Source of the DNA: Erysipelotrichaceae bacterium
GTDB lineage: Bacteria > Bacillota_I > Bacilli_A > RFN20 > CAG-449
Assembly: GCA_015059045.1 (NCBI GenBank)
Contig: SVBD01000001.1
Location: 135,876-199,875 of the forward strand
Direction of reading: 5' to 3'
Length of the DNA: 64,000 bases
The notes below the pieces were generated by a model that saw only the letters and a program-made list of their open reading frames with translations, ran no database searches and had not been told where the DNA came from. Positions 17,508 through 56,956 of this stretch are shown here, piece after piece; positions within the stretch are counted from its first letter, which is position 1, and every line of letters starts with the position of its first letter. Both the position numbers and the translations under genes were made by a program.

Positions 17508-18440
17508 TTACTCCTCCTTTCCATGAATTTGATCATAAATGTCCTCTGCAGATTTAAATATATAATCTATAGTACTGACTTTTTTATCAATTAAATTATG
17601 CTTATATTTTTTTATCAATGATTGAGATAATTTTATTCTTTGATTTGGAACATAAATGGCTAAATAGTTTTCAAATGCTGTTATTGTAATTTTTGAATTA
17701 AAGTACATTTGTAATCTATTTACTAAGCTAATTAATTCATTTGAGCAAATTGAGTTTGTTTTCTTTCCATATGTTGAAAAAACATTAATTTTATTTGGAT
17801 ATTTTGGACTATCATAATAAAAATCAAAGACATTTTTCCCATTGAAATTATTAATTTTATGATTCTCAATAGTATCTAATTGTATAAATTCATTTAAGCA
17901 TTTATTTGAAGAAAATACATATAATGATGAATGTTTAATTTTGCCTTTTGTCGTTATTTGAAATATATCTAAATTACCTTTTTTCTTAATCGAACAAATA
18001 TGTTCGTTAATTTCCATAACAATATTATTAGCTGTATAAATACTATCCATTGTCTTAATATTAAGATTAAATTTGTTTGTATTTATCGAGTAATCTATCA
18101 GTTGAAGTTCGTCAAATATAAAAGAATTATAATATTTTTGATATTTTTTGTTAAAAACAAAATATTCAATTAAAACAATTAAAATAGTTGTTAGTAATGC
18201 GATAAATAACAAGAAGACATTAATTATTGTTTTAATATTTTCTTCAACAAAATAAATTAAATTAAATGTTTCAAAAAAATATTCCCTATAAAAAATATCA
18301 TAAAACGCAGGCAATGAAAAAACTAAATATGTAAAAGAAAAACAACAAAAAGAAATTATCATTGAAATAATAATTTTAGTAAGATAATAAGATCTTAATT
18401 CGATAAGTCTTATATCAATTAATGAATAATCTTTTTTCAT
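17508..18440 (-). CDS. Hypothetical membrane protein (2 N-terminal TM helices)
   Basis: 310 aa; ORF only; no recognisable domain. Confidence 0.4.
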   Translation of the reverse strand: MKKDYSLIDIRLIELRSYYLTKIIISMIISFCCFSFTYLVFSLPAFYDIFYREYFFETFNLIYFVEENIKTIINVFLLFIALLTTILIVLIEYFVFNKKYQKYYNSFIFDELQLIDYSINTNKFNLNIKTMDSIYTANNIVMEINEHICSIKKKGNLDIFQITTKGKIKHSSLYVFSSNKCLNEFIQLDTIENHKINNFNGKNVFDFYYDSPKYPNKINVFSTYGKKTNSICSNELISLVNRLQMYFNSKITITAFENYLAIYVPNQRIKLSQSLIKKYKHNLIDKKVSTIDYIFKSAEDIYDQIHGKEE

Positions 18441-18521: not shown

Positions 18522-18550
18522 AAATAAAAAGGAGAGTATAATTACTCTCC
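18522..18550 (-). terminator. Rho-independent terminator
   Basis: GGAGAGTA-taat-TACTCTCC hairpin followed by a T-run on the minus strand. Confidence 0.55.
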
Positions 18551-18558
18551 ACTAAATT

Positions 18559-18993
18559 CTAGAAATAATCTTCTTCTTTTGGCGCTTTTCTCTTTTTGAA
18601 GATAGCGAAGAAAATAACAAACAGGATTAGGTATGGAACAAACGAGAACCAATTAGCTAGTAATACTTGTGTTACCATTTCATTATTAATTAATCCTGAG
18701 ATTAATCCCATTAGGAAACTATGAAATGTTATGAAAAATTCAGAAATAACTGTAATTCCTGCTAGTAATCCATTACCAAAATCTCCTAAACCAATTAAAG
18801 TAGTATTAACAACTTCGATTGTAGTTAGAAAATAAAGTAACCCATGAATAAATGGCAAGAAGAAAATACTTGCAAAAAATCCTCTAAACCTTGCAATTAA
18901 TAACAAGAAAAAGAATGGTATAATTAACGCACTAAATATTCCACAAACTTCAAGAATAGAAACAATAGTAGATTCTAATAATAACAATTCCAT
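18559..18993 (-). CDS. Small integral membrane protein (4 TM)
   Basis: 144 aa; hydrophobic throughout. Confidence 0.4.
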   Translation of the reverse strand: MELLLLESTIVSILEVCGIFSALIIPFFFLLLIARFRGFFASIFFLPFIHGLLYFLTTIEVVNTTLIGLGDFGNGLLAGITVISEFFITFHSFLMGLISGLINNEMVTQVLLANWFSFVPYLILFVIFFAIFKKRKAPKEEDYF

Positions 18994-19043: not shown

Positions 19044-22000
19044 TTATTTACGAATTTCAAAAGTATCTACAAATGAACGATTGTTTTGTCTAGAAACAAG
19101 TAAAGTTTTATCAACAATCTTACTTAGATCAGATACTTTTTCACTTGGTGCAGAAAGAATAACTTGAAGACCAAATGATTTTAAAATTTTAATAGATTCA
19201 ATAATTCTTGTTGAGTCCATTTTAGAGAAAGCTTCATCAAAAATTACTAATCTAATTGAGTTATTTAATGAATTAGAGCGAATTCTATATAATTGACTAA
19301 ATGACGCTAAAATTGAAACGTAGAATGGAGTTTGAGTTTCACCACCAGATTGTTTTTTCATATTTTTAGCTAGAGAATAAGTTCTTTCTTCACCTTTAGT
19401 AACTAACATATCAAACATTAAATATGTTCGATAATCAGTGAATTTTTCTACATTTTGTTCAAGAACGCTATCCTTATCTTTGTTTGATCCTGATAAGTCA
19501 CCAATTAATTTAAATAAATTAGACATTACATCTTGATATTTATTTAAGTATAATTGTTCATCTTCCCCATAAGTTAATAATAATTCATCTGTAATCATAT
19601 CGTAATATTCACGATATTGAGGTGCTGGAGAGACGACAAATTGATAACTATCTTGACCAAATCTTGCATCTTTTAATGCTTCATTTAATTCGTCAATTTG
19701 ATTTCTTACACTTTCAATTGATGTCTTTAGTTTAAAGATGAAATCATCTTTAAATTCTTTAGTTGCTTTTTCATAAGCATCTTTAATTTTAGCTTGGTAT
19801 TGAGGAAGTTTAACATCCCTAATATTTTCTAAATCACGGTCAAATTCAACATTTGTTTCTTTTGTAATATCATATGATAGTTTATAAGTTAAAACATATT
19901 CTCTTCTTAATTCTTGAAGAAGATTCATTTGAGCTCTAATCTTATTTTGGCTACGTGTGTATAAATCATCATAATAACTTCTAATAGCGATTAATGAACG
20001 TCCAGTATCTAATTCTTCTTGGAATTTCTCTAACGCGTAATTATTGATGAAATCTTTATCAAATGTTTCATTAATTTCGTTTAAGATACGATTTGAATTT
20101 TCGATTTGATATGGAATTTTTTCTTCAACAATATCCTTAATTGCTTGAGATAAAGTACCTTTTTCTAAGATTAATGATTGTTTGTCATCTTGAAGTTTTT
20201 CAATGTCATGTTCAATCTTTCTAATCTTATTATCAATTGTTGTAACTTCATAAGAACCAGCATTTTCTAATTCTTGTTTATATCCTTCTAAATTCTTTCT
20301 TAAACCAGATAAATTTTCTGCTTCATCTAATACAACTAAAGCTGATTCAACTTCGTTTTTATTTAATACTTCTAATTTAGAAGCAAAACTCAATGCATCA
20401 ACAAATTCCTTTAATAAAGTAATTTCTTCTCCTTCATGAGCAAATTCTCTACCTCTTACATTAATTAAATCTTGAGAAACTCTTCTACCTAATAAAGGGT
20501 ATTGATAATTTCTTTCAGGAATAAAGAAAGATGCAAAGTTACGATATCCTTCACATTTTGGTGTGATACCATGTCCTGACTCTCTTGCTTCAGCAAAAGT
20601 TTCACATTTAATCATTTTTCCTAATAGGAAATTTGTATAATCTTTAGCGCCTTGATGATCTGTAATGATTTCTTCTGCTAAAGAATTAGGTAAAGCGTAG
20701 AATTGTTGTTCATTTAACTTTCTAGCGTCCACTAAACCAGTATTATAATAATTATGAGCTTTTAATATTTCAGGAAGAATTCTATTTGCAGCTTCATAAT
20801 ATTTATCTTCAACGAATAAATTTAGTTTTTGACGATAGATAAATCCTTCTATAGCCTTAATCCATTTTGGAGTCTTAATATCAACTAAATCAGCATAGAT
20901 TAATACATCGACATGTTCATTAAAATAATCAGTTAAACGATGTTGTAATTCGCTTCTAACTTGTTTTAAGTTGTAGTCATACATCTTTGTACCTTGTTGT
21001 AAATCATTGATTTGTTGTTTCTTCAATGTATGACTTGTAACTAACTCATTTAAATAGTTTTTAAGTGAAACGTATACTTCATTAATTACTTCTTTGAATA
21101 AGTTAATAGAATCTCTAAATTCTAATAAACTATGTCTAGAAATATGATCTTCAGAATAAATGACTGACTTGAAATCTTCAGCTTTTTCAACCATATCTAC
21201 ACAAACGCTATTAACTTTATTTAATTCATGTTGATATCTAGTCAAAATTGTTAAATTTTTATTATCACTATCAACAAACGCTAATAATTTTTTAGAAGCA
21301 TTTTCAAAATTATTAATGTATGATGAAAAATTATTTCTAATTGTTTGTAATGATAATTCTAAAGAATTAATTTTCGATTCTAAATTTTCTTTAGCGTTAG
21401 TTAATTCTAAAGTTAAGTTATATGAACCAGAAGAAACCTTTTCTCCAATATATGATTCTTTTTGCTTAGTCAATGAAACAATTTCTAAATCAATTTCCTT
21501 AATTTGATCATCTATTTCAACTAAACGATTCTTGTTTGAATCAACATCCTTTTGTAAGTTAGAAATTTGATCTAAGAATACTTGATAAGTGATGCGCTTT
21601 GAAATGTAGTTAGCTAAATTTAAATCTCTTTTACGAGAAGCAAATTCTTGATATTGTTTATGGATTTCCTCTAAGCGTCTTATCTTAATTTGCATATTTT
21701 CAGCTTCAAGTTCTAAACGTTTATATTGTTGAATATTTGCCCTCATTGAATCGATATTAATTTCATTTGGAACATCGCAAACATATTCAGTTAAAAATTG
21801 TTCAATGTTTGTAATTGGAGTAAATGAAACTGCCTTCTTAAATAATGAGAAGTATTTATGTTTTAAGTTTCCAAAAATTTCTTTAATCTTTTCTTGGTAT
21901 TGAGCGTTTGAATCTGCAAAGAAGAATTCATTACGAGTATAGTTTTGTCCTAAATATTCTACTAATGCCTTATAAGACATAGGAACACCTAAACTAACAA

Positions 22001-22415
22001 ATCCATTATCAGGTAACTTATCTTGTAAAATAAAGAAGTGGTGTTCTTCACTATTATCTTCAAACACATCAAAGACAATACCAGTTACAAATTCTTTTTG
22101 ATTAATATCATCAAACCATTCCATAGCGATATATGAAGTAAAACGACCATTTCTTAAATATTTAAATGATCCTGCTCCATCATCACCAATTTCACCTTTT
22201 AAATACCCTTTTAATGTACGACCTGATTTTTCATTAGCCGCTTTATTAAATGTTCTTCCTGATGTATCACCAAGTAAGACAATTTGCATTGCGTCAATTA
22301 ATGTTGATTTACCAGCAGCATTTTGTCCAGTTAAGAAGTTAACTTGATCAAGTTCAAATGTAACATTGTAGAAATAGTGCCAATTGATAATTCTAATTTT
22401 CTTTAATAACTTCAT
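19044..22415 (-). CDS. SMC-like ATPase of MukB/MksB/JetC type (DUF3584-like)
   Basis: 1123 aa; N-terminal INWHYFYN...LTGQNAAGKSTLIDA Walker A typical of MukB/MksB/JetC; long coiled-coil middle; C-terminal Walker B/D-loop LVIFDEAFSKMD. Confidence 0.65.
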   Translation of the reverse strand: MKLLKKIRIINWHYFYNVTFELDQVNFLTGQNAAGKSTLIDAMQIVLLGDTSGRTFNKAANEKSGRTLKGYLKGEIGDDGAGSFKYLRNGRFTSYIAMEWFDDINQKEFVTGIVFDVFEDNSEEHHFFILQDKLPDNGFVSLGVPMSYKALVEYLGQNYTRNEFFFADSNAQYQEKIKEIFGNLKHKYFSLFKKAVSFTPITNIEQFLTEYVCDVPNEINIDSMRANIQQYKRLELEAENMQIKIRRLEEIHKQYQEFASRKRDLNLANYISKRITYQVFLDQISNLQKDVDSNKNRLVEIDDQIKEIDLEIVSLTKQKESYIGEKVSSGSYNLTLELTNAKENLESKINSLELSLQTIRNNFSSYINNFENASKKLLAFVDSDNKNLTILTRYQHELNKVNSVCVDMVEKAEDFKSVIYSEDHISRHSLLEFRDSINLFKEVINEVYVSLKNYLNELVTSHTLKKQQINDLQQGTKMYDYNLKQVRSELQHRLTDYFNEHVDVLIYADLVDIKTPKWIKAIEGFIYRQKLNLFVEDKYYEAANRILPEILKAHNYYNTGLVDARKLNEQQFYALPNSLAEEIITDHQGAKDYTNFLLGKMIKCETFAEARESGHGITPKCEGYRNFASFFIPERNYQYPLLGRRVSQDLINVRGREFAHEGEEITLLKEFVDALSFASKLEVLNKNEVESALVVLDEAENLSGLRKNLEGYKQELENAGSYEVTTIDNKIRKIEHDIEKLQDDKQSLILEKGTLSQAIKDIVEEKIPYQIENSNRILNEINETFDKDFINNYALEKFQEELDTGRSLIAIRSYYDDLYTRSQNKIRAQMNLLQELRREYVLTYKLSYDITKETNVEFDRDLENIRDVKLPQYQAKIKDAYEKATKEFKDDFIFKLKTSIESVRNQIDELNEALKDARFGQDSYQFVVSPAPQYREYYDMITDELLLTYGEDEQLYLNKYQDVMSNLFKLIGDLSGSNKDKDSVLEQNVEKFTDYRTYLMFDMLVTKGEERTYSLAKNMKKQSGGETQTPFYVSILASFSQLYRIRSNSLNNSIRLVIFDEAFSKMDSTRIIESIKILKSFGLQVILSAPSEKVSDLSKIVDKTLLVSRQNNRSFVDTFEIRK

Positions 22416-22425
22416 AGCCTACCTC

Positions 22426-23043
22426 CTAAAATGCTTCATCTACGCCATATTGAGCAATTTCATCAAAAATAGCGTTAATTTTATCCATGTCAATAACATA
22501 TAGGATTGAAGGTAAAATATAGAATGTAAATGTACGATCTCTAAATTCACCTGCAACACGATTTATAATATTGTGATTTTCTAAAAAACGATAACAGCTT
22601 GCCATACTGACTGCGCTTGGTTTCTTATCAAGACGAACAAGACCTTTTTCAACTAAAACTTTCAATAATTCAGTTGCGTTAGTAAATACTTCAGTAGTCA
22701 TTTGTTCTTCTTCTCTAGCGCATTCATATAAATAACGTAAACCATATACCATAATTGATGTTAAGAAATCTAAACGAATATGATTTTCTTGATATTCATT
22801 ATTAATCGAAATAACACCTAAACGACTATCTTTTTCAATTAACCATCCTGAATATCCTAAGTATTCACGAATTAAATCAATATTTCTTTCGCAAAAAGAA
22901 TAATCACGATTACTCTTCATCATCTTCAAATGACGATCATATGTTTCTCTTAAAATAAATGATTTTAGCATTAATGTATTTACAACATGAGCAAATTCTT
23001 CTTTATCTGCATTTGTAAATTTTTCGTATTCTTCAAAAAACAT
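22426..23043 (-). CDS. MksE/JetB-like (DUF4194-like) kleisin-associated subunit candidate
   Basis: 205 aa acidic protein; position and size match the middle gene of mksFEB/jetABC operons; no independent motif. Confidence 0.45.
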   Translation of the reverse strand: MFFEEYEKFTNADKEEFAHVVNTLMLKSFILRETYDRHLKMMKSNRDYSFCERNIDLIREYLGYSGWLIEKDSRLGVISINNEYQENHIRLDFLTSIMVYGLRYLYECAREEEQMTTEVFTNATELLKVLVEKGLVRLDKKPSAVSMASCYRFLENHNIINRVAGEFRDRTFTFYILPSILYVIDMDKINAIFDEIAQYGVDEAF

Positions 23044-23045
23044 TT

Positions 23046-24482
23046 TTATTCTCCTTTCTTAACATAACCATAATTTGGCATATCGAATTTTTCTTCTTTA
23101 AGAACTCTTTCCATTGGATCTGTTCTTTTTAATGAGTAGAAACAGTTACTAGCATCAGCCTTAACACTACCTAGAATAACCATAATGTAATCTTCAACAT
23201 CTTTAATGTTAATATCTTTAACATTGATTTCTTTTTGATCTTTAAATGCGTTATCCATGAAATCTAAAATTCTTTCATCGCTATATTGGTCCATTATATT
23301 AAGTAAAGATTGCATTAAACCTTCATTGACTTCATGATTGAAATCATCAAGAGCCATAGCTTCCGAATCGAATCTATTATTTCTACGATATGGCTTTTGT
23401 AAACTATACTCATCCATATATCCTTGTTGATATAGAATAATTGAATTATTCACATCTTTAATAATACCTTGATATAAATGAGCATCTTCATCGCCATTAA
23501 TAACTTTAGCAAGCGCTAAGAAGATAGTTTCAAGTTTACCTTTAATAGATTTATCCTGGTTATTTAAATAAATAACTTTTTCTGTTGTAGCTTGGGTATA
23601 TTCTGATTGAGCTTTATCAATTTCTTCCATATCACTAGCAAGTTGAACATAAGTATCAGAAATATAGTTAACTTTTTTAATAATATCATTAATTGCTTCA
23701 TCACGATTTTTTAAAGAATGATTGAACATTAATGCTTGGTCAACTAATTTTTCTCTTACAACTTCACTATTTAACCATTTTTTTAAAATATGATTTATTG
23801 GTCCATTGTATAAAATAATAGAATCATTAGTTTTTAATGGGTGGTAGATTGGATCTACTACGTCTTCTCGAGCAATATCGAAGTGTTGAGTTAATACTTC
23901 ATTTGGTGAGAAGATATTTGCTAATTGTTTATGGAAAACTCTAATTGAGTGATTTAATTTTGATACTTCAAGTTCTAAATCTTTAGTTTTATTGACAGCA
24001 TTAACTAAACTACGATACATAAAATCATCTTGAGTTTCATCTGCATATTGTAAGTCTGCAAAAGTTGAATGAACGTATGAAATATATTTCGCTTCATTAT
24101 CAGAAACAAATTCATAAATAATTTTTAGCATTGAAATTGAATAACTTGGCAAAAGAATATATTCAGCACCAGTTTTAATATCAGTATCAATCATAATCCA
24201 ACCTGTATCAACAAGTCTTCTTACAACTAAATTTGCCTTAGCGCCTAAAGTAGGTTCGCTTAATAAAGTCATATCATCAAAATCATCTACTTCTATTTGA
24301 AATAAATTGATTTCTTTTTCGCCTCGACTTTTTAGTAATGTTAAATAATCTTGCTTTCTAATCTTATTACGATATATGGTTAAGCAATCATATAAAGTCA
24401 CTAAAGCAATACCATAAATATTTTTATTTCTACTTGATAAAATACTAAAGAAATTATCAGGAATCTTTGTAAATAAGTTCAA
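23046..24482 (-). CDS. MksF/JetA-like (DUF3375-like) kleisin candidate
   Basis: 478 aa; size and position (first gene, 2-nt gap to next) match MksF/JetA. Confidence 0.45.
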   Translation of the reverse strand: MNLFTKIPDNFFSILSSRNKNIYGIALVTLYDCLTIYRNKIRKQDYLTLLKSRGEKEINLFQIEVDDFDDMTLLSEPTLGAKANLVVRRLVDTGWIMIDTDIKTGAEYILLPSYSISMLKIIYEFVSDNEAKYISYVHSTFADLQYADETQDDFMYRSLVNAVNKTKDLELEVSKLNHSIRVFHKQLANIFSPNEVLTQHFDIAREDVVDPIYHPLKTNDSIILYNGPINHILKKWLNSEVVREKLVDQALMFNHSLKNRDEAINDIIKKVNYISDTYVQLASDMEEIDKAQSEYTQATTEKVIYLNNQDKSIKGKLETIFLALAKVINGDEDAHLYQGIIKDVNNSIILYQQGYMDEYSLQKPYRRNNRFDSEAMALDDFNHEVNEGLMQSLLNIMDQYSDERILDFMDNAFKDQKEINVKDINIKDVEDYIMVILGSVKADASNCFYSLKRTDPMERVLKEEKFDMPNYGYVKKGE

Positions 24483-24563: not shown

Positions 24564-24594
24564 TAAAAAAAGTGTGTTTGCAATGCAACACACT
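24564..24594 (-). terminator. Rho-independent terminator downstream of plsC
   Basis: GTGTGTT(T)GCA...TGCAACACAC hairpin plus a T7 run on the minus strand. Confidence 0.55.
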
Positions 24595-24613
24595 TGTTAA
24601 AATAAAAAATTTT

Positions 24614-36534: not shown

Positions 36535-36575
36535 AAAATAAAAAGATCCTCATTTTTCATTTCTAAATGAGGAAT
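36535..36575. terminator. Bidirectional hairpin terminator at the 3' end of the sigG-like gene
   Basis: CCTCATTT...AAATGAGG hairpin flanked by A/T runs on both sides. Confidence 0.5.
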
Positions 36576-37342
36576 TTTTTTAAAGTACTTAATGCATTTT
36601 TCTCTAATCTACTAACTTGTGCTTGAGATATTTTGTAATATTTCGCGATTTCAACTTGAGACTTTCCTTCATAGTATCTTTTATTGATTATATCTCTTTC
36701 CATCGCATTTAATGCTTCTAATCCTTGATTAAGCGAAAGATGATTAATCATCTTTTCATATGACTGATTATTATCAGAAACAACATCTTGAAGTAATATC
36801 GATTGATCAAAATCATTATATAATGGTTCACTCAAAGATGATATTGGAAGAGTTGATTCTATCGCCTCTTGAATTTGATATAAATTTACATTCAACTTTT
36901 TTGCCATATATTCATTTGTTGGAGATATACCAAATTCGTTAATATACTTTTCTTTTTCTTTCATATAATGATACGCTGTATCCTTTATTTGACGGGATAT
37001 TCTTAGCATAGTTGAATCTCTCAAATACCTTCTAATTTCACCTTCAATCATTGGTACTGCATATGTTGAAAACTTAACATCTAAATCCAAATCAAAATTT
37101 TCAATTGCTTTTAATAATCCTAATGAGCCAATTTGAAATAAATCATTGCATTGTTCACTTCTTTTACCATACTTATTTACTATAGATAAAACCAACTTTA
37201 AATTACCATTAACAAGGATATCTAAGTCTTCTTTATTACCTTCTTGACGGTATTTTTTCAAATATTCTAACGACTGCTCACTTGATAACACTTTTAATTT
37301 ATTTGTATCAATTCCAACAATTTCTACTTTGTTTTTTCCCAT
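36563..37342 (-). CDS. sigG: Sporulation sigma factor (SigG/SigF-type)
   Basis: 259 aa; sigma-70 regions 2-4; located after spoIIGA-sigE as in Bacilli/Clostridia. Confidence 0.7.
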   Translation of the reverse strand: MGKNKVEIVGIDTNKLKVLSSEQSLEYLKKYRQEGNKEDLDILVNGNLKLVLSIVNKYGKRSEQCNDLFQIGSLGLLKAIENFDLDLDVKFSTYAVPMIEGEIRRYLRDSTMLRISRQIKDTAYHYMKEKEKYINEFGISPTNEYMAKKLNVNLYQIQEAIESTLPISSLSEPLYNDFDQSILLQDVVSDNNQSYEKMINHLSLNQGLEALNAMERDIINKRYYEGKSQVEIAKYYKISQAQVSRLEKNALSTLKKFLI

Positions 37343-38025: not shown

Positions 38026-38262
38026 TTATTTTATTGTAAAACAATATATATTGTCTTCTAATTTTTCTCTTGTTCCACTTAATGCATATACATATCCACT
38101 TAAAAAATCAACGATTCGACATTTAGAAATATTAGAACTATTAGTCAAATTAATTATTATTTGATGATGTTTTTTTAATCCTTCAAGTAATGAATGTATA
38201 TCAGTCTCACCATTAACTAAAAATACTTTAGGCATTAATTCATTACTTTTAATTTTACTCAT
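38026..38262 (-). CDS. Hypothetical small protein
   Basis: 78 aa ORF, 8-nt overlap with sigE. Confidence 0.3.
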   Translation of the reverse strand: MSKIKSNELMPKVFLVNGETDIHSLLEGLKKHHQIIINLTNSSNISKCRIVDFLSGYVYALSGTREKLEDNIYCFTIK

Positions 38263-38953
38263 GATTTTTCATCGTTTTCTTTAATTTATTAAGTATTCTT
38301 TTTTCTAAACGAGATATGTAAGATTGTGAAATTGATAACTTATCACTTGTTTCTTTTTGAGTTAATTCCTCATGTCCATCTAGTCCAAATCTCATTACTA
38401 AAATTTCTTTTTCTCTAGGTTTTAATTTATCTATCGCATCGTTCAATTGATTAATAATTTCTTCTTTATCTAATGAATCATAAATATTTTCATTTTGATC
38501 GTATAAAATATCTTCTAAAAGCAGTTCATTACCATCATAATCAACCTTTAATGGTTCATCTAATGATATTTCTACTCTTGCTTTTGATTTTTTTCTTAAA
38601 TACATTAGTATTTCATTTTCTATACATCGCGATGCATATGTTGCCAATTTAATATTTTTATCCAATTTAAATGTATTAATTGCTTTAATTAAACCTAACG
38701 TTCCAATTGAAATTAAATCTTCTAAATTACTTATATTTGTATCATATCTTTTTGCAACATATACTACTAATCTTAAGTTGTGCTCTATTAAAATATTTCT
38801 AGATTTTAAATCACCTTTTTCAAATTGACTTACATGATAATCTTCTTCCTCTTTTGACAAAGGTGGAAGTAAATTATCTTTTCCATTTATATAGAAAGTA
38901 GTTAGATTAATATTTAATTTTTTTAGTAATACATCAGTTATTTTATTTATCAT
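38255..38953 (-). CDS. sigE: Sporulation sigma factor SigE (pro-sigma-E)
   Basis: 232 aa; sigma-70 regions 2/4; immediately downstream of spoIIGA. Confidence 0.75.
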   Translation of the reverse strand: MINKITDVLLKKLNINLTTFYINGKDNLLPPLSKEEEDYHVSQFEKGDLKSRNILIEHNLRLVVYVAKRYDTNISNLEDLISIGTLGLIKAINTFKLDKNIKLATYASRCIENEILMYLRKKSKARVEISLDEPLKVDYDGNELLLEDILYDQNENIYDSLDKEEIINQLNDAIDKLKPREKEILVMRFGLDGHEELTQKETSDKLSISQSYISRLEKRILNKLKKTMKNHE

Positions 38954-38956: not shown

Positions 38957-39763
38957 TTACCTCAAATATGCATTTAATAAAACTTCACAACCATTGAAAT
39001 CTTTAATTTCATTTATTAAAACAACATAGACAAAATATTCTTCATTCGAAGAATTAATACTAATTAACGATTTGTACGCTTCATATTTATCTGAACCAGA
39101 TATTGTTGACACTTCAATCATTGTGGAGTTTATTTTAGGAAAAAGCCAGGAGGAATCGATACAAAATATAACTGGGACATTATCATATTTAAGCGTATTC
39201 CCACTGTCAAAGTATGCTTTATAAGCAATTTTCTGTTCATTATTGCTAATAATGCACGTAGTTTTATAAACATGCAAATGAAATAAAGCGTCAACAATTC
39301 TTGTTGAAATATACATAATTACCCCAAATAGAGGGATTAATAAAGCGTAAATAATTCCAATTGGACTATTTATAGCTAGATAGATATTTAATAAGAATAA
39401 ATAATTTGAGATGCTAGAAAAGAATAAATTTATCGTAAAAAAGACAATTGAAAAAATTACAAATTTTATTGTTCCTTTTTTGCTTATTAATTTAAATATC
39501 GTCATATTTATTATAAAAAAACAAAATAAGGATACAATTAATGAAAATTTAATAGTAAAAAATAAAATGGAATTTGCAATAATTAAAGCTATTTTCACGC
39601 TCCTTTTTTCGCGATATGTAAGTAGTAATTCCAAACCATAAATACATACCATAATTTCAATTACCAATAACACCAGACTTAAATCTATGTAGACGTCCAA
39701 AGTGATCACCTTAAATATAGTAACACAAAAAAAGTGCGAACTTTGTCGCACTTTGATATCCAT
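38957..39763 (-). CDS. spoIIGA: Sigma-E processing peptidase SpoIIGA-like
   Basis: 268 aa; 5 N-terminal TM helices and a C-terminal domain with a DSGN aspartic protease motif; between ftsZ and sigE. Confidence 0.65.
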   Translation of the reverse strand: MDIKVRQSSHFFCVTIFKVITLDVYIDLSLVLLVIEIMVCIYGLELLLTYREKRSVKIALIIANSILFFTIKFSLIVSLFCFFIINMTIFKLISKKGTIKFVIFSIVFFTINLFFSSISNYLFLLNIYLAINSPIGIIYALLIPLFGVIMYISTRIVDALFHLHVYKTTCIISNNEQKIAYKAYFDSGNTLKYDNVPVIFCIDSSWLFPKINSTMIEVSTISGSDKYEAYKSLISINSSNEEYFVYVVLINEIKDFNGCEVLLNAYLR

Positions 39764-45236: not shown

Positions 45237-45246
45237 ATGGTGCAAC
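45223..45246. other. Left attachment junction (attL-like): host half-site, AAAG direct repeat, then element terminal IR GGTGCAACTTAGGGATTT
   Basis: The host mraY reading frame stops here; base composition switches sharply; the 18-bp IR matches the right end in 17/18 positions. Confidence 0.7.
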
Positions 45247-45306
45247 TTAGGGATTTACGAAAAACAGTAAATTTTTGAGCGACACCTTCAAGCGGGGCAA
45301 ACAAGT

Positions 45307-45353
45307 AAAGACCACACATAAGGATAAAACCTTGTGTGTGGTCTTTCTTTTTG
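45307..45353. terminator. Strong hairpin terminator at the left inner end of the element
   Basis: Perfect 12-bp stem AAAGACCACACA/TGTGTGGTCTTT with a T-rich tail; lies just 3' of the last cargo gene. Confidence 0.6.
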
Positions 45354-45356
45354 CGT

Positions 45357-45635
45357 TTAATCTTCTCCTGTGAGCAACATCACATCAAGCATCGTTCTTG
45401 CACCGAGCCGAAACGCATACACGAATATTGCCTCTTCTGCAAGGCTGGCGTATTCACTCCAACAATCATCGAACCGTTCTAAAATATCACGTTGCTCATC
45501 GGTCATTGCTTTTAGTAGGTCTTCGTGATGCCGAGCCATATACTCCATTAACTGCTTCATCTCGGGAGTGTTGTTACGGCTATCCGATTGCGGATTTATA
45601 TTGCCGTGCCACAATTCTGCAAGCGTATTTTTCAT
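45357..45635 (-). CDS. Hypothetical 92-aa acidic protein (last gene of the cargo operon)
   Basis: Start reassigned to MKNTLAELW, which has an AAGGAGGTG RBS; no recognisable domain. Confidence 0.5.
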   Translation of the reverse strand: MKNTLAELWHGNINPQSDSRNNTPEMKQLMEYMARHHEDLLKAMTDEQRDILERFDDCWSEYASLAEEAIFVYAFRLGARTMLDVMLLTGED

Positions 45636-45722
45636 ATGCACACCTCCTTGTAGCACAACACTATACCACAGGTCTGCGCATAAGTCCAGATAACAAATTG
45701 TGAACGAAACTTTGCCGCAGAG

Positions 45723-47051
45723 TTAGTTTTCTAAAGAGGCTGAAATATAATTTATACCTTCCAAAAAATAGAATTTGGAAAACTTATCTTTTCCCGCTAT
45801 TGGGCGGAATGTAATTTTTATATTTTTCTTTTTTCTCTTTTTTTGTTTTTCAACCGATTCTGCGTTATTTACTTTTGCATCTTTATAAACAATAATATAT
45901 TTTTCTGCTGAAAATCGTTGACCATGTAATGTAATGCCTAGAACTTTACCTTCAACAGCTATTTCGGAAGAAAGGGGTTCTTCTGCAAAGTCATCTGGTA
46001 TTCGGTCGTAATCACAGCGGGTTTCATCGCAAAAATTCGTTTTTACATGATGCCACTTTCCTACTAATGAAGAAGCTAGGATATATGCAGCTCTATAATC
46101 GCTTGTGTATACATCTCCAATACTAATATCAAATTTGCAACCAGTATGTTTTTCTATTGTAAGAAGGTTTTCAATGTAAGCAATAAGATGAGGGGCATTT
46201 TTAAACATTGGCGCCGACAATTCATTTTCATCCAATGTTGCATTTAACAACTCTTTGTCTCCAATCTTGATGGAAAGTTGCTTTGTTTTACCGATTTCAT
46301 TAATGAGCCGTTCACGAGCTAATTGTACATTCAAATCTAACGACGGAACTTTAGTAATATTAAAATCTGTGCGTGCTACATTATCATAAGCGGTAATTGA
46401 AAAATCAAATCCTTGCCCATTAGAAATTGTGCCAAATATCATTTTCCCATACTCAAGACATGGTTTTCTCCTCAATTGAATTTCGATGATTATATTACCC
46501 GATTGGATTGTGGCGGATACGGCAGGTGGAAACTCCGGTGCACCGATTATAGTTATCATTCCATCACGATATTCCATGTTAGGAAAAGGGTCTTCGATTT
46601 CGCCAAGATATTCTCGGTACGCTGTCGTTTTAAGCTCAACCCTTGTTTGTGTTCTATATGCATAATCCCATGGGGTTTCGGACTTACTCATATGAGGATA
46701 CTTTTTGTAGTCAATTTGATAGGTTCCCTTGATTTTTTTGGGATATTTAGATAATGCATCCGCTGTTTCGGGAGTGCTCACCAAGCGCCCTAAATCAGCG
46801 TTGGGTTTTACTGTAAAATCGGGATACAGTGGGTGAACTTTTTTGGCGGCAGAAAGAAAGTCCGTAAACTGTCTTTGAATAATATCATACTTTCCTATCT
46901 GACCGAGGATCGAAATCATTTCTGGCGTATTATTGCAGAAAACAGGAGACTCAACCGTGCTATCCTGAATAACGACATTGTGATTAGAATTTCTGCCGAT
47001 AGTTGAATTGTTTGATGAAGATTTTTTCCAAAACATAGTCTCTCCGTTCAT
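45723..47051 (-). CDS. Hypothetical 442-aa cytoplasmic protein (candidate effector)
   Basis: ORF with GC-rich codon usage; no Walker A and no TM helix; start codon overlaps (ATGA) the upstream 52-aa TM ORF. Confidence 0.5.
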   Translation of the reverse strand: MNGETMFWKKSSSNNSTIGRNSNHNVVIQDSTVESPVFCNNTPEMISILGQIGKYDIIQRQFTDFLSAAKKVHPLYPDFTVKPNADLGRLVSTPETADALSKYPKKIKGTYQIDYKKYPHMSKSETPWDYAYRTQTRVELKTTAYREYLGEIEDPFPNMEYRDGMITIIGAPEFPPAVSATIQSGNIIIEIQLRRKPCLEYGKMIFGTISNGQGFDFSITAYDNVARTDFNITKVPSLDLNVQLARERLINEIGKTKQLSIKIGDKELLNATLDENELSAPMFKNAPHLIAYIENLLTIEKHTGCKFDISIGDVYTSDYRAAYILASSLVGKWHHVKTNFCDETRCDYDRIPDDFAEEPLSSEIAVEGKVLGITLHGQRFSAEKYIIVYKDAKVNNAESVEKQKKRKKKNIKITFRPIAGKDKFSKFYFLEGINYISASLEN

Positions 47052-47206
47052 TTTTTCACATCACTGTTTTGTATTACTGTATTTCCATCACCTTTGATTT
47101 TTGCTTTTGCTTTGGATTTTCTTTCTATTGTTTTACCTGTAAAGAGACCTGCCACAAAGGTTGCTATAGGGAGCGCAACATCAATAAGCCAAAATTTCCA
47201 ATCCAT
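47048..47206 (-). CDS. 52-aa single-pass membrane peptide, translationally coupled to the 442-aa ORF
   Basis: Encodes MDWKFWLIDVALPIATFVAGLFTGKTIERKSKAKAKIKGDGNTVIQNSDVKK; one TM helix and a basic C-tail; absent from the track because it is under 60 aa. Confidence 0.45.
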   Translation of the reverse strand: MDWKFWLIDVALPIATFVAGLFTGKTIERKSKAKAKIKGDGNTVIQNSDVKK

Positions 47207-47224
47207 TTTAATTCACTTCCTTTG

Positions 47225-47722
47225 TTAATTTTTAGGAATTAGCGTCCGAAAATCAATCCCGTTTGCGCTTGTATCCCATTTTCCTACTTGCATTTGTTTT
47301 ATACGCTTACCGTCACCGAAATCAAGCAAGTCGAGCCTATTGAAATTGTTGAGAATCTTATTCAAACTACCGAGCCCCGCAGAAGACAACAAAAATGCTT
47401 CTGCCGGATCGCACAATTTACAATACGCCCATAACTGACCCAAGTCGTGGAGATTTAACTGTGTTTTCTTAGCTTCTATAAAAACAATGCTTGTCTTTTT
47501 ACCCTTTATGATTATACCGAGAACATCAATTTGAATATCCAAACCCACGGTTTGTGGATAATTGTCTATGACTCCGTATTTCTCAAGAAAAAGGTCGAGA
47601 GTTTGCGCATGAGAGTCAACAGTGATTATTGTTGCCCCCGGATATTTTTCTTCCAAATACGTTTGAAGCCAACACCGCATCGGCTCATATAACTCAAATT
47701 CTTTTTTTACATTATTCGCCAT
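47225..47722 (-). CDS. PD-(D/E)xK-like nuclease candidate (165 aa)
   Basis: Residues D...GLDIQIDVLG...IVFIEAKKT form a D/(D/E)xK pattern typical of the restriction-endonuclease fold; 11-nt overlap with the upstream gene. Confidence 0.4.
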   Translation of the reverse strand: MANNVKKEFELYEPMRCWLQTYLEEKYPGATIITVDSHAQTLDLFLEKYGVIDNYPQTVGLDIQIDVLGIIIKGKKTSIVFIEAKKTQLNLHDLGQLWAYCKLCDPAEAFLLSSAGLGSLNKILNNFNRLDLLDFGDGKRIKQMQVGKWDTSANGIDFRTLIPKN

Positions 47723-48584
47723 AACCTAAGAACCTCGCCAAATCTGTCCAAGAGTCAAAGTGCTTTCCACGAATTTCTTCGGGCAAACTATGGTCGTGCT
47801 CACCAGGATGAAGGGGCTTGCTTGCGCGTTTAACAGTTTTTTCCCAATAGAATTTATGGGTTTTAACTGGGTCGATAAACTCTAAAAGTTCTTCGCTGTA
47901 TTTCTCAAGAGCATCCTGCTTGTGTTTAATGTTGAATCCGACGGCAAGGAACTCATTAGCAAATATTTTAACTTGATGTTCCTTTTTCCAAAAGTTCGGT
48001 TTGCCTTCGTTGTATTTTACTAGCTTTCCGTCTCTAAAGTTGGGATGACCGAAATCAATAGTTTGTACGGGAACATCAATATCCTTGAGCATATTTGCGA
48101 TGTCGATAACCATATACCAATTTCCGGGGATTTCAATATAAACTCTGTGCGCACCGTCTTGACCGAACGCAATATTGCTTTTTCTTATGTATCCTGTAAC
48201 GTCTGCGATTCCTCGAAGCAACGCACGCTTTTGGTCAGAAGTTATAGAAAACAGCTCTGGGTTCATTCTCATAGTTGAATGATGTCTGCCACCGCCAATG
48301 AGACGTATGATTTCTCTCATAACGTATTCATCGTTGGGTTTTGTGAACGAGAGCTTCGTCGAATGGGGCGCTTCAGTAACAACCAAATTGTGCCCAATCA
48401 AAGGCTCTACTATAGAACGAATATCAACAATACTAGCCTTTACATATATTGCGACATCTTTCAAATCGTCCGTGTATAAATTTTTATAAGGAATATCTAT
48501 GGTAACGGTTGTGGTGCTAGTTCCTCTTTGAATTTCACCGTTGCCTAATATCATTCCGAGTAAATATGACATTTCTGCATTCAT
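47712..48584 (-). CDS. Hypothetical protein with two LAGLIDADG-like segments (290 aa)
   Basis: Start reassigned to MNAEMSYLLGMILGNGEIQ, which has an AAGGCGG RBS; a second segment ALLRGIADVTGYI lies about 120 aa downstream; canonical catalytic Asp not conserved. Confidence 0.3.
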   Translation of the reverse strand: MNAEMSYLLGMILGNGEIQRGTSTTTVTIDIPYKNLYTDDLKDVAIYVKASIVDIRSIVEPLIGHNLVVTEAPHSTKLSFTKPNDEYVMREIIRLIGGGRHHSTMRMNPELFSITSDQKRALLRGIADVTGYIRKSNIAFGQDGAHRVYIEIPGNWYMVIDIANMLKDIDVPVQTIDFGHPNFRDGKLVKYNEGKPNFWKKEHQVKIFANEFLAVGFNIKHKQDALEKYSEELLEFIDPVKTHKFYWEKTVKRASKPLHPGEHDHSLPEEIRGKHFDSWTDLARFLGYGE

Positions 48585-48600
48585 AAATATTACCGCCTTA

Positions 48601-49329
48601 TTAAAGATTATATCCGCGTTCAAATTCTGCTTGATAACCTCTATCAATCGCTAGTTTGCGGATTTCAGTTGTGTTTTGTATATCACCAAACCTAAAACCA
48701 TACCTCTCAACAAGAGTAAGAACAAATTTTGACTTATTAATTCTGCCGACACAAGAACCATTTCCTGCGCCCATATTATCTCTTAAAATTTGAGGACAAT
48801 TCCGCAAGCTGGAAAAATTAATTCTAAATTGAGGGCTTAATTTGTTTGGCATTCCACTCGGTGTATCTCCCATAGTGATAGGACGATAGGTCTGTCCGGG
48901 GAAAAGTTCCTCAAAAATATCATCTCTTCCATCCATAGGAACTTCTGCTTCAATTGAACCAATTCTGCCGGGGCGAGCCATATATCCTACCAACTCATAC
49001 ATCTGCTGTTCGTTTCTGACAGCTATAGTCTGCGAACGAGGTCCCAACAACGAGGATGCTGCACGTCCTTGAGAAGAAAACATTTTTGTTGGCTGAATAG
49101 CCTGAGCAGGGTGCGTTGCCGCCGTAGGGGGTGTGGTTAAAACGACTTCCTTGTTAGCTTCATTTACAATGTTTTGAAGTTCGGCGTCAAAAATGGTAAA
49201 GAATTTATCAAATCCTTTTACCAAGAATGTTTTTTCAGCCGTTTCAAATTTGACTTTGATTTGTCCGTTAGCAACAGAGGTAACGATACCATCACCGAAA
49301 ACACGGTGTTTTACTTTATATGCTGACAT
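48601..49329 (-). CDS. Hypothetical protein (242 aa), directly downstream of the MTase
   Basis: ORF abuts the MTase stop; N-terminal small domain, Pro/Ala/Thr-rich linker and a C-terminal domain; no known motif. Confidence 0.45.
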   Translation of the reverse strand: MSAYKVKHRVFGDGIVTSVANGQIKVKFETAEKTFLVKGFDKFFTIFDAELQNIVNEANKEVVLTTPPTAATHPAQAIQPTKMFSSQGRAASSLLGPRSQTIAVRNEQQMYELVGYMARPGRIGSIEAEVPMDGRDDIFEELFPGQTYRPITMGDTPSGMPNKLSPQFRINFSSLRNCPQILRDNMGAGNGSCVGRINKSKFVLTLVERYGFRFGDIQNTTEIRKLAIDRGYQAEFERGYNL

Positions 49330-51441: not shown

Positions 51442-51468
51442 TTTTATCTCCTAATAATGGTTAAATTT

Positions 51469-51678
51469 TTAATTGTTGTCGGGTATGACTTCCATAATGT
51501 CTCCGACATCGCATTCCAATGCTTGACATATTCTCACAATCACTTCGGTATTAACATTTTCATCGTGACCGAGCTTTGCCATTGTACCTCTGCTTATACC
51601 GGTAGCAGCAATAAGGTCTTTTTTCTTCATTTTTTTATCAATTAGCAATTTCCATAGTTTGTTATAGCAAACAGCCAT
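51469..51678 (-). CDS. XRE-family HTH regulator (C-protein-like controller and/or element repressor)
   Basis: 69 aa from the ATG MAVCYNKLWKLL, which has a GAGGTG RBS; HTH segment DLIAATGISRGTMAKL; 27 bp upstream of the MTase and divergent from the primase gene. Confidence 0.7.
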   Translation of the reverse strand: MAVCYNKLWKLLIDKKMKKKDLIAATGISRGTMAKLGHDENVNTEVIVRICQALECDVGDIMEVIPDNN

Positions 51679-51879
51679 ATCGCACCTCAAATAAAATTTT
51701 TGTTTTAGATATTATATCACAGATAGCAAGAAAAGGCAATATATTTTACTAAAATTAAAAGCATTTTTGTCAAAGGCTTTTGAAAAATGTTCATATTTGT
51801 AGACTTTTTCTAAAGTGCCATCCGTTCCTTCCGGGGAGCGGATTTTTTATTTTCTGAAGATTTTTCAAAAAGGGGCTTA

Positions 51880-52460
51880 AAAAATGTCGTTTTCGTGAGC
51901 TACCTATGAGGAAAAATTTATGCAAAGGGGGTTAACTTTTGCCGTTTTCGTGACCTACCAGTAGAGGAAAAAAATTATTTTTGCTAAACCCTTCAATTTT
52001 TTCCATTACCGAGGCTTGTATATGAGAGGCGGAAAGATTTATAAACTTTTTTTCAAAAAGCGGACCAAAGCCGATAAAAATCTCCAACCAGGTAGTGAGG
52101 AGAGAAAAATTATCTTTTTTTCGTAAAAGCGGACCAAACGGCATTTCATTTTCCAGCCAGGGGATGAAGAGAGAAAATATTAAGATTTTTCTCGTTTCGG
52201 TGGAAAAACGACTCTCGATTCTCCAACAGGTGGTGAAATGGAAAATATTTTTTGAAGATTTTTCGGAAAACTCCCCCCCCAATATGCCACTCAAATCTCC
52301 GTATAACGAAAATCGAAAAATTTTTTTGAAAAACGGGTCCCCAATAAGCCCTCCAAATCTCCGTATAACGAAGGCGGTAAAAATCATTTGTTTTTTTTCG
52401 ATTTTCACGATTTGGTGGAAAAACGGCTTTCCATTTTCCAACTGGGGAGTGAAGGCACCC
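51880..52460. repeat. Array of about 8 degenerate direct repeats (period about 65-70 bp; iteron-like) in the 840-bp non-coding region upstream of the primase-helicase gene; putative replication origin
   Basis: Recurring cores TCTCCAACCAGGTAGTGAGGAGAGAAAAATTA, TTTTCCAGCCAGGGGATGAAGAGAGAAAATATTA, TTCTCCAACAGGTGGTGAAATGGAAAATATTT, TTTTCCAACTGGGGAGTGAAGG, plus two copies of AAATCTCCGTATAACGAA and two of CGTTTTCGTGA(G/C)CTACC; a C8 tract at 52273..52280. Confidence 0.7.
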
Positions 52461-52528
52461 AACAACCAAGAAAGGAGGTACACCGATGAACACAACGCTT
52501 ACAACAAAAATGAAAGGAGGTCGATACG

Positions 52529-54820: not shown

Positions 54821-54828
54821 CCCCTTGG

Positions 54829-54958: not shown

Positions 54959-55134
54959 CTACCTACACGAAAGGAGGTGGTGCCTATGATTGTGTTTACC
55001 GATGCCGAGGGCCCGGTCAAATCTCTGTGACTAAAAATACGTACAGCGGGCAAGGGCTTTCACGCGCAAAAATTCGAATTCAAACGGGGTATTAACCCCT
55101 AATTCAAACATTCATCAAGAAAGGAACAATTATT

Positions 55135-55987: not shown

Positions 55988-56007
55988 AATTTTGGAGGTA
56001 TAAAACT

Positions 56008-56946: not shown

Positions 56947-56956
56947 GGACGAGCCT

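What the first reader, a model, noticed from the sequence alone, without database searches (positions are those of the whole stretch)
19044..24482. Chromosomal three-gene MksFEB/JetABC-like SMC module without the JetD/MksG nuclease-topoisomerase partner
Three minus-strand genes are packed head to tail: 478 aa, a 2-nt gap, 205 aa, a 10-nt gap, then an 1123-aa SMC-like ATPase. The ATPase has an N-terminus characteristic of MukB/MksB/JetC (INWHYF...FLTGQNAAGKSTLIDA), a long coiled coil and a C-terminal Walker B LVIFDEAF. Gene order and sizes match jetA-jetB-jetC (mksF-mksE-mksB). No Toprim/DUF2220 JetD-like gene follows; the next ORFs are small membrane proteins. In an endospore-forming Firmicute that would normally rely on SMC-ScpAB, an MksBEF-type complex is unusual. 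It could be an auxiliary condensin or a plasmid-restricting Wadjet relic that has lost, or never had, its cleavage subunit.
Basis: partly seen in the sequence, partly recalled or inferred. Interest (0 to 1): 0.6.

Follow-up and report, generated by a model that had tools for sequence, protein, structure and literature searches.

The report
Nuclease-less JetABC SMC operon, vertically inherited
This is an intact three-gene SMC motor of the Wadjet plasmid-defence type that has lost its DNA-cutting subunit, and a whole lineage of uncultured gut Firmicutes has kept it as tightly conserved as a housekeeping gene, so it probably now organises DNA instead of destroying plasmids.

Summary
Three minus-strand genes (478, 205 and 1123 aa; gaps of 2 and 10 nt) are full-length type I Wadjet JetA (kleisin), JetB (KITE) and JetC (SMC-like ATPase) with intact ATPase motifs.

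No JetD, and no remnant of one, exists in the 64-kb window or in about 30 related loci.

- **Setting:** the operon lies among housekeeping genes (ftsK, pulA, plsC | jetABC | glgCDA, leuS) at host-like GC.
- **Inheritance:** this arrangement recurs in uncultured gut Bacilli/Erysipelotrichales genomes down to about 40% JetC identity, and JetC divergence tracks that of neighbouring glgC and glgD.
- **Constraint:** jetABC is under strong purifying selection (omega 0.00-0.13), and is as conserved as leuS.
- **Origin:** the JetD-less sequences form one clade (96/100 bootstraps) nested among JetD-bearing relatives, so one ancestral loss of JetD is inferred.
- **Neighbours:** the 310-aa downstream protein is a TtfA-like membrane protein of the glycogen operon, not a JetD substitute. 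The 144-aa membrane protein appears co-transcribed with jetABC.

Best reading: a domesticated, nuclease-free loop extruder like MksBEF. This is a new member of a known kind, not a decaying relic. Two things are untested: whether SMC-ScpAB or a remote jetD exists elsewhere in the genome.

The parts
23046..24482 (-). jetA: kleisin subunit (478 aa, TTG start), type I Wadjet JetA family
   Evidence: Pfam PF18982 JetA at 1.3e-77 covering profile positions 14-433 of 434. PADLOC JetA1 at 4.7e-105 covering 1-461 of 464. AAGGAGG sits 6 nt before the TTG start. Omega is 0.02-0.08 in pairs with dS below about 1.3.
22426..23043 (-). jetB: KITE subunit (205 aa), DUF4194/MukE-like
   Evidence: Pfam DUF4194 at 2.7e-13. 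PADLOC JetB1 at 1.5e-65. A family profile hits the solved P. aeruginosa JetB 8dk1_E at 7.5e-4. Omega is 0.00-0.09.
19044..22415 (-). jetC: SMC-like ATPase (1123 aa) with head, long coiled coil and hinge
   Evidence: PADLOC JetC1 at E=0, 1060 bits, over the full length. Pfam AAA_29, SbcC_Walker_B and MukB N-terminal domains. Walker A (G30, G35, K36), signature (S1023, G1024, G1025, E1026) and Walker B (D1060, E1061) residues are all kept at columns that are invariant or nearly invariant across 34 JetC sequences. The profile's best solved match is JetC of E. coli GF4-3, 8as8, at 9e-55.
18559..18993 (-). orf144: small membrane protein with about four hydrophobic segments. It is probably the last gene of the jet transcription unit. 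Its functional link to JetABC is uncertain.
   Evidence: It starts 50 nt after jetC and has its own Shine-Dalgarno and a TTGATA-16-TATAAT site. A hairpin terminator follows it. It is present right after jetC in loci with JetC identity of about 49% or more, but absent in deeper branches. It has a conserved ARFRG motif and a C-terminal tail of basic residues followed by acidic and aromatic ones. No family hit was found.
24570..24595 (-). Terminator-like hairpin after the plsC-like gene, marking the upstream boundary of the jet unit
   Evidence: A 9-bp stem followed by a T-run; sequence read.
18531..18550 (-). Terminator-like hairpin after orf144, marking the downstream boundary of the jet unit
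   Evidence: GGAGAGTA-ATTA-TACTCTCC followed by TTTTTATTT.

Best explanation
The locus encodes an intact type I Wadjet-derived JetA-JetB-JetC complex (kleisin, KITE dimer, SMC-like ATPase) that lost its Toprim nuclease JetD once, in the ancestor of a lineage of uncultured gut Bacilli/Erysipelotrichales. Since then it has been inherited vertically as a fixed chromosomal gene set.

Shown here: all three subunits are full length; the ATPase motifs are intact; JetD is absent locally; the neighbourhood is housekeeping genes in conserved order; the genes co-diverge with their neighbours; and they are under purifying selection at housekeeping level.

Inferred: the complex still loads on DNA and extrudes loops using ATP, as characterised JetABC does. 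Lacking a nuclease, it acts as an MksBEF-like organiser of chromosomal DNA, affecting compaction or segregation, and does not cut plasmids.
For: - **Family assignment:**
- **No JetD:** a profile built from four JetD proteins, extended to five, was run against the six-frame translation of the window and the loci fetched up to each call. It recovers every known JetD (E 1e-124 to 1e-187, plus a truncated one at 7e-23). It finds nothing in the window or in any in-clade locus.
- **Synteny:** ftsK-pulA-orf92-plsC-jetABC-(orf144)-(DUF3137-like)-glgCDA-leuS is conserved in 18 genome loci. In more distant in-clade loci (about 37-49% JetC identity) jetABC is still JetD-less, and where the flanks are known it sits beside glgCDA, leuS or other housekeeping genes.
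- **Composition:** GC across the locus (0.24-0.29) equals that of the flanks.
- **Selection:** for window versus L003, identity is 82% (jetA), 87% (jetB) and 82% (jetC). That compares with leuS 82%, ftsK 73%, pulA 74%, glgC 72% and glgA 60%. Omega is 0.00-0.13 where dS is about 1.3 or less.
- **Co-divergence:** JetC versus GlgC gives Mantel r=0.65 (0 of 5000 permutations reach it). JetC versus GlgD gives r=0.86, comparable to GlgC versus GlgD at 0.81.
- **Phylogeny:** the JetD-less clade is monophyletic in 96 of 100 bootstraps. Its sister group contains a JetD-bearing locus (P0158/L035), and another JetD-bearing relative (P0127/L029) is at 38% identity.
[quoted passage not shown] Mycobacterial MksB is described as a condensin (PMC11329512, abstract).
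Against: - There is no functional data.
- Only 64 kb of this genome and at most 10 kb of flank in relatives were visible. A jetD elsewhere cannot be excluded, and the presence of SMC-ScpAB is unknown.
- The N-terminal JetB motif (M-F/W-x-E-x-F/Y-x-x-L) corresponds by position to the helix reported to contact JetD. It is as conserved in the JetD-less clade as in JetD-bearing sisters (PMC10586767), which hints at a persisting partner or a second role.
- A co-transcribed membrane protein (orf144) is not explained by a pure condensin model.
- SMC-ScpAB is ancestral and widespread in Firmicutes (PMC8136486), so any condensin role would probably be auxiliary.
Confidence: 0.6

Rival explanations
1. 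It is still a plasmid-defence system that works without cutting. JetABC recognises small circular DNA by complete extrusion and then blocks its replication, transcription or partition. It might do this by tethering the plasmid to the membrane through the co-transcribed 144-aa protein, in the way Smc5/6 silences episomes without a nuclease.
For: The proteins belong to the type I Wadjet family. orf144 lies inside the same terminator-bounded unit and carries a conserved C-terminal tail of basic then acidic and aromatic residues that looks like a docking peptide. The JetB N-terminal motif is retained. Smc5/6 as a nuclease-free restriction factor is reviewed in PMC10586767.
Against: In every tested Wadjet/MksBEFG system the nuclease is required for restriction (PMC10586767; PMC10123090). 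orf144 is absent from deeper JetD-less branches, so it cannot be an obligate partner. Housekeeping-level constraint, fixed synteny and vertical descent are not what I would expect of a defence gene (my own general knowledge).
Confidence: 0.15
2. It is a split but complete Wadjet system: JetD is encoded elsewhere in the genome and still partners with JetABC to cleave plasmids.
For: Only 64 kb of the genome was visible. The JetB N-terminal motif associated with JetD contact is conserved.
Against: In all five JetD-bearing loci retrieved here, jetD directly follows jetC, and a sixth locus (L035) has a partial jetD in the same position. The characterised systems are likewise described as single operons (PMC10586767). 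About 30 JetD-less loci spanning 40-99% JetC identity show no jetD within up to 10 kb on either side.
Confidence: 0.1
3. It is a decaying relic of a defence system with no current function.
For: The effector gene is missing.
Against: All three ORFs are intact and full length against the family profiles. The catalytic motifs are kept. Omega is 0.00-0.13, with jetB 100% identical at dS 0.63 in one pair. The genes are retained across a clade that has diverged to about 40% JetC identity.
Confidence: 0.02

Closest known systems
Type I Wadjet JetABCD (E. coli GF4-3, P. aeruginosa PA14)
   Same: It has the same three core families in the same order: JetA (PF18982), JetB (DUF4194) and JetC. The best solved-structure matches are JetC 8as8 (9e-55) and 8dk2 (1.6e-43), and JetB 8dk1. 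It presumably has the same dimer-of-dimers loop-extruding architecture.
   Different: It has no JetD Toprim nuclease. It sits in a fixed housekeeping context and not on a mobile or patchy island. It is inherited vertically under strong constraint. Sequence identity to the nearest JetD-bearing relative is only about 34-38%.
MksBEF without MksG (P. aeruginosa; mycobacterial MksB)
   Same: It is a three-gene kleisin-KITE-SMC operon lacking the nuclease. [quoted passage not shown]
   Different: This is an independent loss in Firmicutes from a type I JetA lineage. It is conserved across a whole clade, whereas MksBEF is described as 'scattered over the phylogenetic tree' (abstract).
MukBEF of gamma-proteobacteria
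   Same: It has the same gene order (kleisin, KITE, SMC), the same architecture, and vertical inheritance as a housekeeping complex. MukBEF is also hypothesised to descend from a Wadjet-like ancestor.
   Different: It is only remotely similar. The JetC profile hits MukB at 3e-14 against 9e-55 for JetC, and the Pfam MukB N-terminal hit is weak. MukBEF replaced SMC-ScpAB; whether that happened here is unknown.

Membership tests
Wadjet type I (JetABCD) defence system | JetA kleisin of the PF18982/DUF5716 family | tested here: met
   Pfam at 1.3e-77; PADLOC JetA1 at 4.7e-105 over the full length.
Wadjet type I (JetABCD) defence system | JetB KITE subunit (DUF4194) | tested here: met
   Pfam at 2.7e-13; PADLOC JetB1 at 1.5e-65; a family profile hits solved JetB 8dk1_E.
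Wadjet type I (JetABCD) defence system | JetC SMC-like ATPase with intact Walker A, Walker B and signature motifs | tested here: met
   PADLOC JetC1 at E=0. The motif residues are kept at invariant or nearly invariant columns. The best solved-structure match is JetC 8as8 at 9e-55.
Wadjet type I (JetABCD) defence system | JetD Toprim/CAP nuclease (DUF2220/JetD_C with DUF3322) encoded in the operon | tested here: not met
   No PADLOC or Pfam hit in 18 flanking ORFs. The JetD profile against the six-frame window and all clade loci gave no hit with E below 1. The rest of the genome was not visible.
Wadjet type I (JetABCD) defence system | Restriction of small circular plasmids by cleavage | not testable with these tools
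   This needs transformation or plasmid-stability assays.
MksBEF-type nuclease-less condensin | Kleisin-KITE-SMC operon with no MksG/JetD | tested here: met
   Terminator-like hairpins bound the unit jetA-jetB-jetC-orf144.
MksBEF-type nuclease-less condensin | Stable chromosomal gene evolving like host genes | tested here: met
   Synteny; omega 0.00-0.13; co-divergence with glgC and glgD.
MksBEF-type nuclease-less condensin | Acts on the chromosome (folding, segregation) | not testable with these tools
   This needs Hi-C, ChIP-seq or deletion phenotypes in a host that is so far uncultured.
MksBEF-type nuclease-less condensin | Relationship to SMC-ScpAB in the same genome (coexists with it or replaces it) | not testable with these tools
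   No smc, scpA or scpB was found among the annotated window ORFs.
MukBEF | MukB/MukF/MukE sequence families | tested here: not met
   There is only a weak MukB N-terminal Pfam hit (1.7e-7). The profile hits MukB at 3e-14 against 9e-55 for JetC. No MukF or MukE hit was found.
SMC-ScpAB | Canonical SMC (SMC_N with hinge) plus ScpA/ScpB families | tested here: not met
   SMC_N scores 23 bits, below the 40-bit cut-off. The partner proteins are JetA and DUF4194, not ScpA and ScpB.

The most novel reading that the evidence does not exclude
In this lineage of gut Firmicutes the JetD-less JetABC has become the principal chromosome condensin and has displaced SMC-ScpAB, as MukBEF did in gamma-proteobacteria. 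That would make it a living example of the proposed route from plasmid-defence SMC to housekeeping condensin. The evidence does not exclude this: conservation is at the level of leuS, the operon appears fixed across the clade, and no smc or scpAB could be looked for outside the 64-kb window.
Probability: 0.12. Interest if true: 0.8.

Novelty: new member of a known kind. Interest (0 to 1): 0.5.

Why it matters
The SMC field has proposed that MukBEF and MksBEF descend from Wadjet-like defence complexes that lost their nuclease (PMC10586767). Natural intermediates for that transition appear to be few.

This clade gives a dated, single-origin loss of JetD. JetD-bearing sister lineages are available for comparison. 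The loss was followed by long-term retention at housekeeping-level constraint in a spore-forming Firmicute background. That makes several questions directly testable:
- which changes in JetA, JetB and JetC accompany the switch from plasmid killing to a chromosomal role;
- whether adding back a sister JetD restores cleavage;
- how such a complex shares the chromosome with SMC-ScpAB, or replaces it.

There is also a practical point. PADLOC gave JetA, JetB and JetC hits here but no JetD hit, so detectors that score Wadjet only when all four genes are present would probably miss such loci. Genome annotations that label these genes 'Wadjet anti-phage system protein' (as seen for JetA) may overstate a defence role.

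Tried and rejected
1. **The 310-aa downstream protein as a degenerate JetD or replacement effector: rejected.**
   - A profile-profile comparison with JetD gives probability 0.1%.
   - It belongs to a divergent DUF3137 family (profile versus L022 at 1.5e-38; versus L030 at 4e-37).
   - The AlphaFold model (pLDDT 83) shows a two-helix membrane anchor plus an alpha/beta domain. Its only significant solved match is the mycobacterial transport factor TtfA, 6t84, at E 2e-4.
   - It has its own extended -10 promoter and sits 3 nt from glgC, so it belongs to the glycogen unit.
2. **JetD pseudogene remnants between jetC and glgC: none found**.
3. **The divergently encoded 147-aa proteins upstream of jetA in L019 and L022 as homologues of orf144: no** (E 0.08-0.77).
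4. **Testing whether clade genomes exist without jetABC.** I fetched metagenome loci through GlgC. Nearly all 80 were from outside the clade (GlgD identity 27-36%). The single in-clade locus (L038) had jetABC upstream of glgC. The test is therefore uninformative.
5. **Solved-structure searches that failed.** A single-sequence search with JetC found nothing, so a profile was needed. The JetA profile found no true solved relative.
7. **Literature.** Searches for JetD-less Wadjet in Firmicutes, or for SMC loss in Erysipelotrichales, found no specific report.
Full report
**Observation.**
The three minus-strand ORFs are at exactly the reported coordinates: 23046..24482 (478 aa, TTG start), 22426..23043 (205 aa) and 19044..22415 (1123 aa). 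The gaps between them are 2 nt and 10 nt. The TTG start of the first gene has an AAGGAGG Shine-Dalgarno 6 nt upstream.

**Identity of the three proteins.**
- The 478-aa protein is a JetA kleisin. Pfam gives PF18982 at 1.3e-77. PADLOC gives a full-length JetA1 match at 4.7e-105.
- The 205-aa protein is a JetB KITE subunit. Pfam gives DUF4194 at 2.7e-13 and PADLOC gives JetB1 at 1.5e-65.
- The 1123-aa protein is a JetC ATPase. Pfam finds AAA_29, SbcC_Walker_B and a MukB N-terminal domain. PADLOC gives a full-length JetC1 match at E=0, 1060 bits.
- In an alignment of 34 JetC sequences from both JetD-bearing and JetD-less loci, the window protein keeps the residues at the invariant or nearly invariant columns: Walker A (G30, G35, K36), signature (S1023, G1024, G1025, E1026) and Walker B (D1060, E1061).
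- A profile of that alignment matches solved JetC of E. coli GF4-3 (8as8, 9e-55) and of P. aeruginosa PA14 (8dk2, 1.6e-43). Type II JetC (2e-21) and MukB (3e-14) match much less well.
- The JetB profile finds PA14 JetB. The JetA profile finds no solved relative by sequence.
- So this is a type I Wadjet-type JetABC. The kleisin is of the DUF5716/JetA family, not DUF3375.

**Absence of JetD.**
- None of 18 ORFs around the locus hits a JetD model in Pfam or PADLOC.
- I took JetD proteins from annotated plasmid Wadjet operons in Cohnella, Rossellomorea, Butyrivibrio and Erythrobacter, and later one from a metagenomic relative. I built profiles from them and searched the six-frame translation of the window and of every fetched locus.
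- All true JetDs were recovered at E 1e-124 to 1e-187, and a truncated one at 7e-23. Nothing was found in the window or in any in-clade locus.
- There is therefore no jetD, and no recognisable remnant of one, within 64 kb.

**Genomic setting.**
- The neighbours are housekeeping genes. On one side are ftsK, a pullulanase, a 92-aa OB-fold-like ORF and a PlsC-type acyltransferase. On the other are glgC, glgD, glgA, leuS and tex.
- GC across the locus (0.24-0.29) matches the flanks.
- Terminator-like hairpins lie after the acyltransferase gene (24595-24570) and after the 144-aa gene (18550-18531). The likely transcription unit is therefore jetA-jetB-jetC-orf144.
- The 310-aa gene has its own extended -10 promoter and ends 3 nt before glgC, so it belongs with the glycogen genes.
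- Farther along, the window carries the dcw cluster with ftsA, ftsZ, sigE and sigG, plus a spoVD-like penicillin-binding protein.

**Comparative evidence.**
- A scan of one genome per species found 18 loci, all from uncultured gut metagenome-assembled genomes (MAGs). Most are labelled Bacilli, Bacillales or Erysipelotrichaceae; a few carry labels that look implausible.
- In these loci the order ftsK-pulA-orf92-plsC-jetABC-(about 150-aa membrane protein)-(about 310-aa protein)-glgCDA-leuS is conserved down to 57% JetC identity. None has JetD.
- More distant JetC homologues, at 37-49% identity, are also JetD-less. Where their flanks are known they lie beside glgCDA, leuS, rpmB or other housekeeping genes. 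These are P0058, P0071, P0078, P0125, P0126, P0128, P0129 and P0132.
- The nearest JetD-bearing relatives found are P0127 (38%; JetD of 413 aa directly after jetC) and P0158 (34%; partial JetD at a contig end).
- In a neighbour-joining tree of 60 JetC sequences, the JetD-less sequences form one clade in 96 of 100 bootstraps. The smallest clade holding all confirmed JetD-less members never includes a JetD-bearing sequence (100 of 100).
- The sister group of that clade contains the JetD-bearing P0158. The clade together with P0158 and P0127 excludes the plasmid-borne outgroups in 87 of 100 bootstraps.
- The simplest history is a single loss of jetD at the base of the clade.
- Independent JetD-less loci exist elsewhere in Firmicutes. 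One is L036. Another is on a 251-kb Agathobacter rectalis replicon, L027.

**Selection and co-divergence.**

| Gene | Identity, window vs L003 |
|---|---|
| JetA | 82% |
| JetB | 87% |
| JetC | 82% |
| LeuS | 82% |
| FtsK | 73% |
| PulA | 74% |
| GlgC | 72% |
| GlgA | 60% |

- In pairs where synonymous sites are not saturated, omega is 0.02-0.08 for jetA, 0.00-0.07 for jetB and 0.02-0.13 for jetC. These values are equal to or lower than those of glgC and leuS. One pair has identical JetB at dS 0.63.
- Pairwise JetC distances track those of the neighbouring genes. Against GlgC the Mantel r is 0.65, reached by 0 of 5000 permutations. Against GlgD r is 0.86, comparable to GlgC against GlgD at 0.81.
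- This is the signature of a vertically inherited, functionally important gene set. It is neither a relic nor a mobile defence island.

**The downstream genes.**
- The 310-aa protein is not a JetD substitute. It has two transmembrane helices and belongs to a divergent DUF3137 family.
- It shows no profile similarity to JetD (hhalign probability 0.1%).
- Its model (pLDDT 83) resembles only the mycobacterial transport factor TtfA.
- orf144 has about four hydrophobic segments, a conserved ARFRG motif and a conserved C-terminal tail of basic then acidic and aromatic residues (for example KKRKAPKEEDYF).
- orf144 follows jetC in the subclade with JetC identity of about 49% or more, but is missing from deeper JetD-less branches. 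Any role with JetABC is therefore optional.

**Interpretation.**
- Characterised type I JetABC is an ATP-driven loop extruder that senses small circular DNA, and JetD carries out the cleavage. All four genes are needed for restriction (PMC10586767; PMC10123090).
[quoted passage not shown] It also proposes that Wadjet-like systems gave rise to MukBEF.
- The locus studied here fits that pattern, in a different phylum and from a type I lineage. I therefore favour a domesticated, nuclease-free loop extruder like MksBEF acting on the chromosome (confidence about 0.6).
- Rivals are:
  - nuclease-free plasmid interference, possibly using orf144 as a membrane tether (0.15);
  - a jetD encoded elsewhere (0.1);
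  - a decaying relic (0.02, contradicted by the selection data).

**Unresolved.**
- The JetB N-terminus (M-F/W-x-E-x-F/Y-x-x-L) is as conserved in the JetD-less clade as in JetD-bearing sisters. By position it corresponds to the short JetB helix reported to contact JetD. This suggests either another role for that helix or a persisting partner.
- SMC-ScpAB is ancestral and widespread in Firmicutes (PMC8136486), so coexistence is the default expectation.

**Novelty and score.**
- Nuclease-less MksBEF complexes are known, and their origin from Wadjet has been proposed. This is therefore a new member of a known kind.
- What is new is a clade-wide, single-origin, strongly constrained JetD-less type I JetABC in spore-forming gut Firmicutes, with JetD-bearing sisters available for comparison.
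- I found no report of it in the searchable literature.
- Interest is moderate (0.5). It would rise sharply if these genomes prove to lack SMC-ScpAB.

Noticed in passing
window 45239-58906 (mraY pieces at 58895-59086 and 44428-~45240, minus strand): The essential cell-wall gene mraY appears to be split by a 13.65-kb element of higher GC (38-47% against about 27%). The N-terminal 63-aa fragment ends '...KKLTPTFVGAN*'. The C-terminal part resumes '*VAPSLGGVAII...' and matches mraY profile positions 71-321. Joining the two restores the TP(S/T)xGG motif. The element has 18-nt terminal inverted repeats (94% complementary). It carries a large serine recombinase (57143-58852), a phage capsid gene, a primase-polymerase/D5-type helicase and a fused EcoRI-type adenine methylase plus C5-cytosine methylase. 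As far as I know, elements of this kind usually interrupt sporulation genes, not an essential vegetative gene.
   Followed up: partly
window 36563-37342 (sigG-like), 38255-38953 (sigE-like), 38957-39763, 60392-62383 (spoVD-like PBP): Sporulation sigma factors sit directly after ftsA and ftsZ in the dcw cluster. The sigG-like and sigE-like hits score below the NCBIfam equivalog cut-offs. The 268-aa ORF in the position where spoIIGA would be expected has no family hit. The organism is a probable spore-former although its relatives are labelled Bacilli or Erysipelotrichaceae.
   Followed up: no
L001 and L002 versus the window: Two relatives whose JetC is 81-82% identical to the window's have locus GC of 0.52 and 0.48, against 0.27 here. 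Synonymous sites are saturated between the high-GC locus L001 and the low-GC relative L003. That is a very large shift in base composition between fairly close relatives.
   Followed up: no
window 17508-18440 (-): This 310-aa membrane-anchored protein belongs to a divergent DUF3137 family and has a TtfA-like fold. It is the first gene of the glgC-glgD-glgA unit, 3 nt from glgC, and it keeps that position across much of the clade. A membrane factor coupled to glycogen synthesis genes is unexplained.
   Followed up: partly
window 18559-18993 (-), C-terminus: orf144 homologues diverge quickly (about 40% identity) but keep a C-terminal tail of several lysines and arginines followed by Y/E-D-D/Y-F/E, for example KKRKAPKEEDYF, YSDYDE and YDDDF. 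It looks like a short docking motif with no known partner.
   Followed up: no
JetB N-terminus, window 23019-23043 (-) and alignment A6: The first nine residues, M-F/W-x-E-x-F/Y-x-x-L, are conserved equally in JetD-less and JetD-bearing relatives. By position they correspond to the JetB helix reported to contact JetD, so their retention after JetD loss is unexplained.
   Followed up: partly
L027 (Agathobacter rectalis 251-kb replicon NZ_CP143948.1) and L036: These are further, unrelated JetABC operons without JetD in other Firmicutes. One is followed by a gamma-carbonic anhydrase gene, the other by a Spore_YtfJ gene. Loss of JetD seems to have happened more than once.
   Followed up: partly
whole window: Rfam at gathering thresholds and ARAGORN found no RNA gene or element at all in 64 kb. 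That includes no T-box leader before leuS or pheS, whose upstream gaps are only about 70 nt and 9 nt.
   Followed up: no
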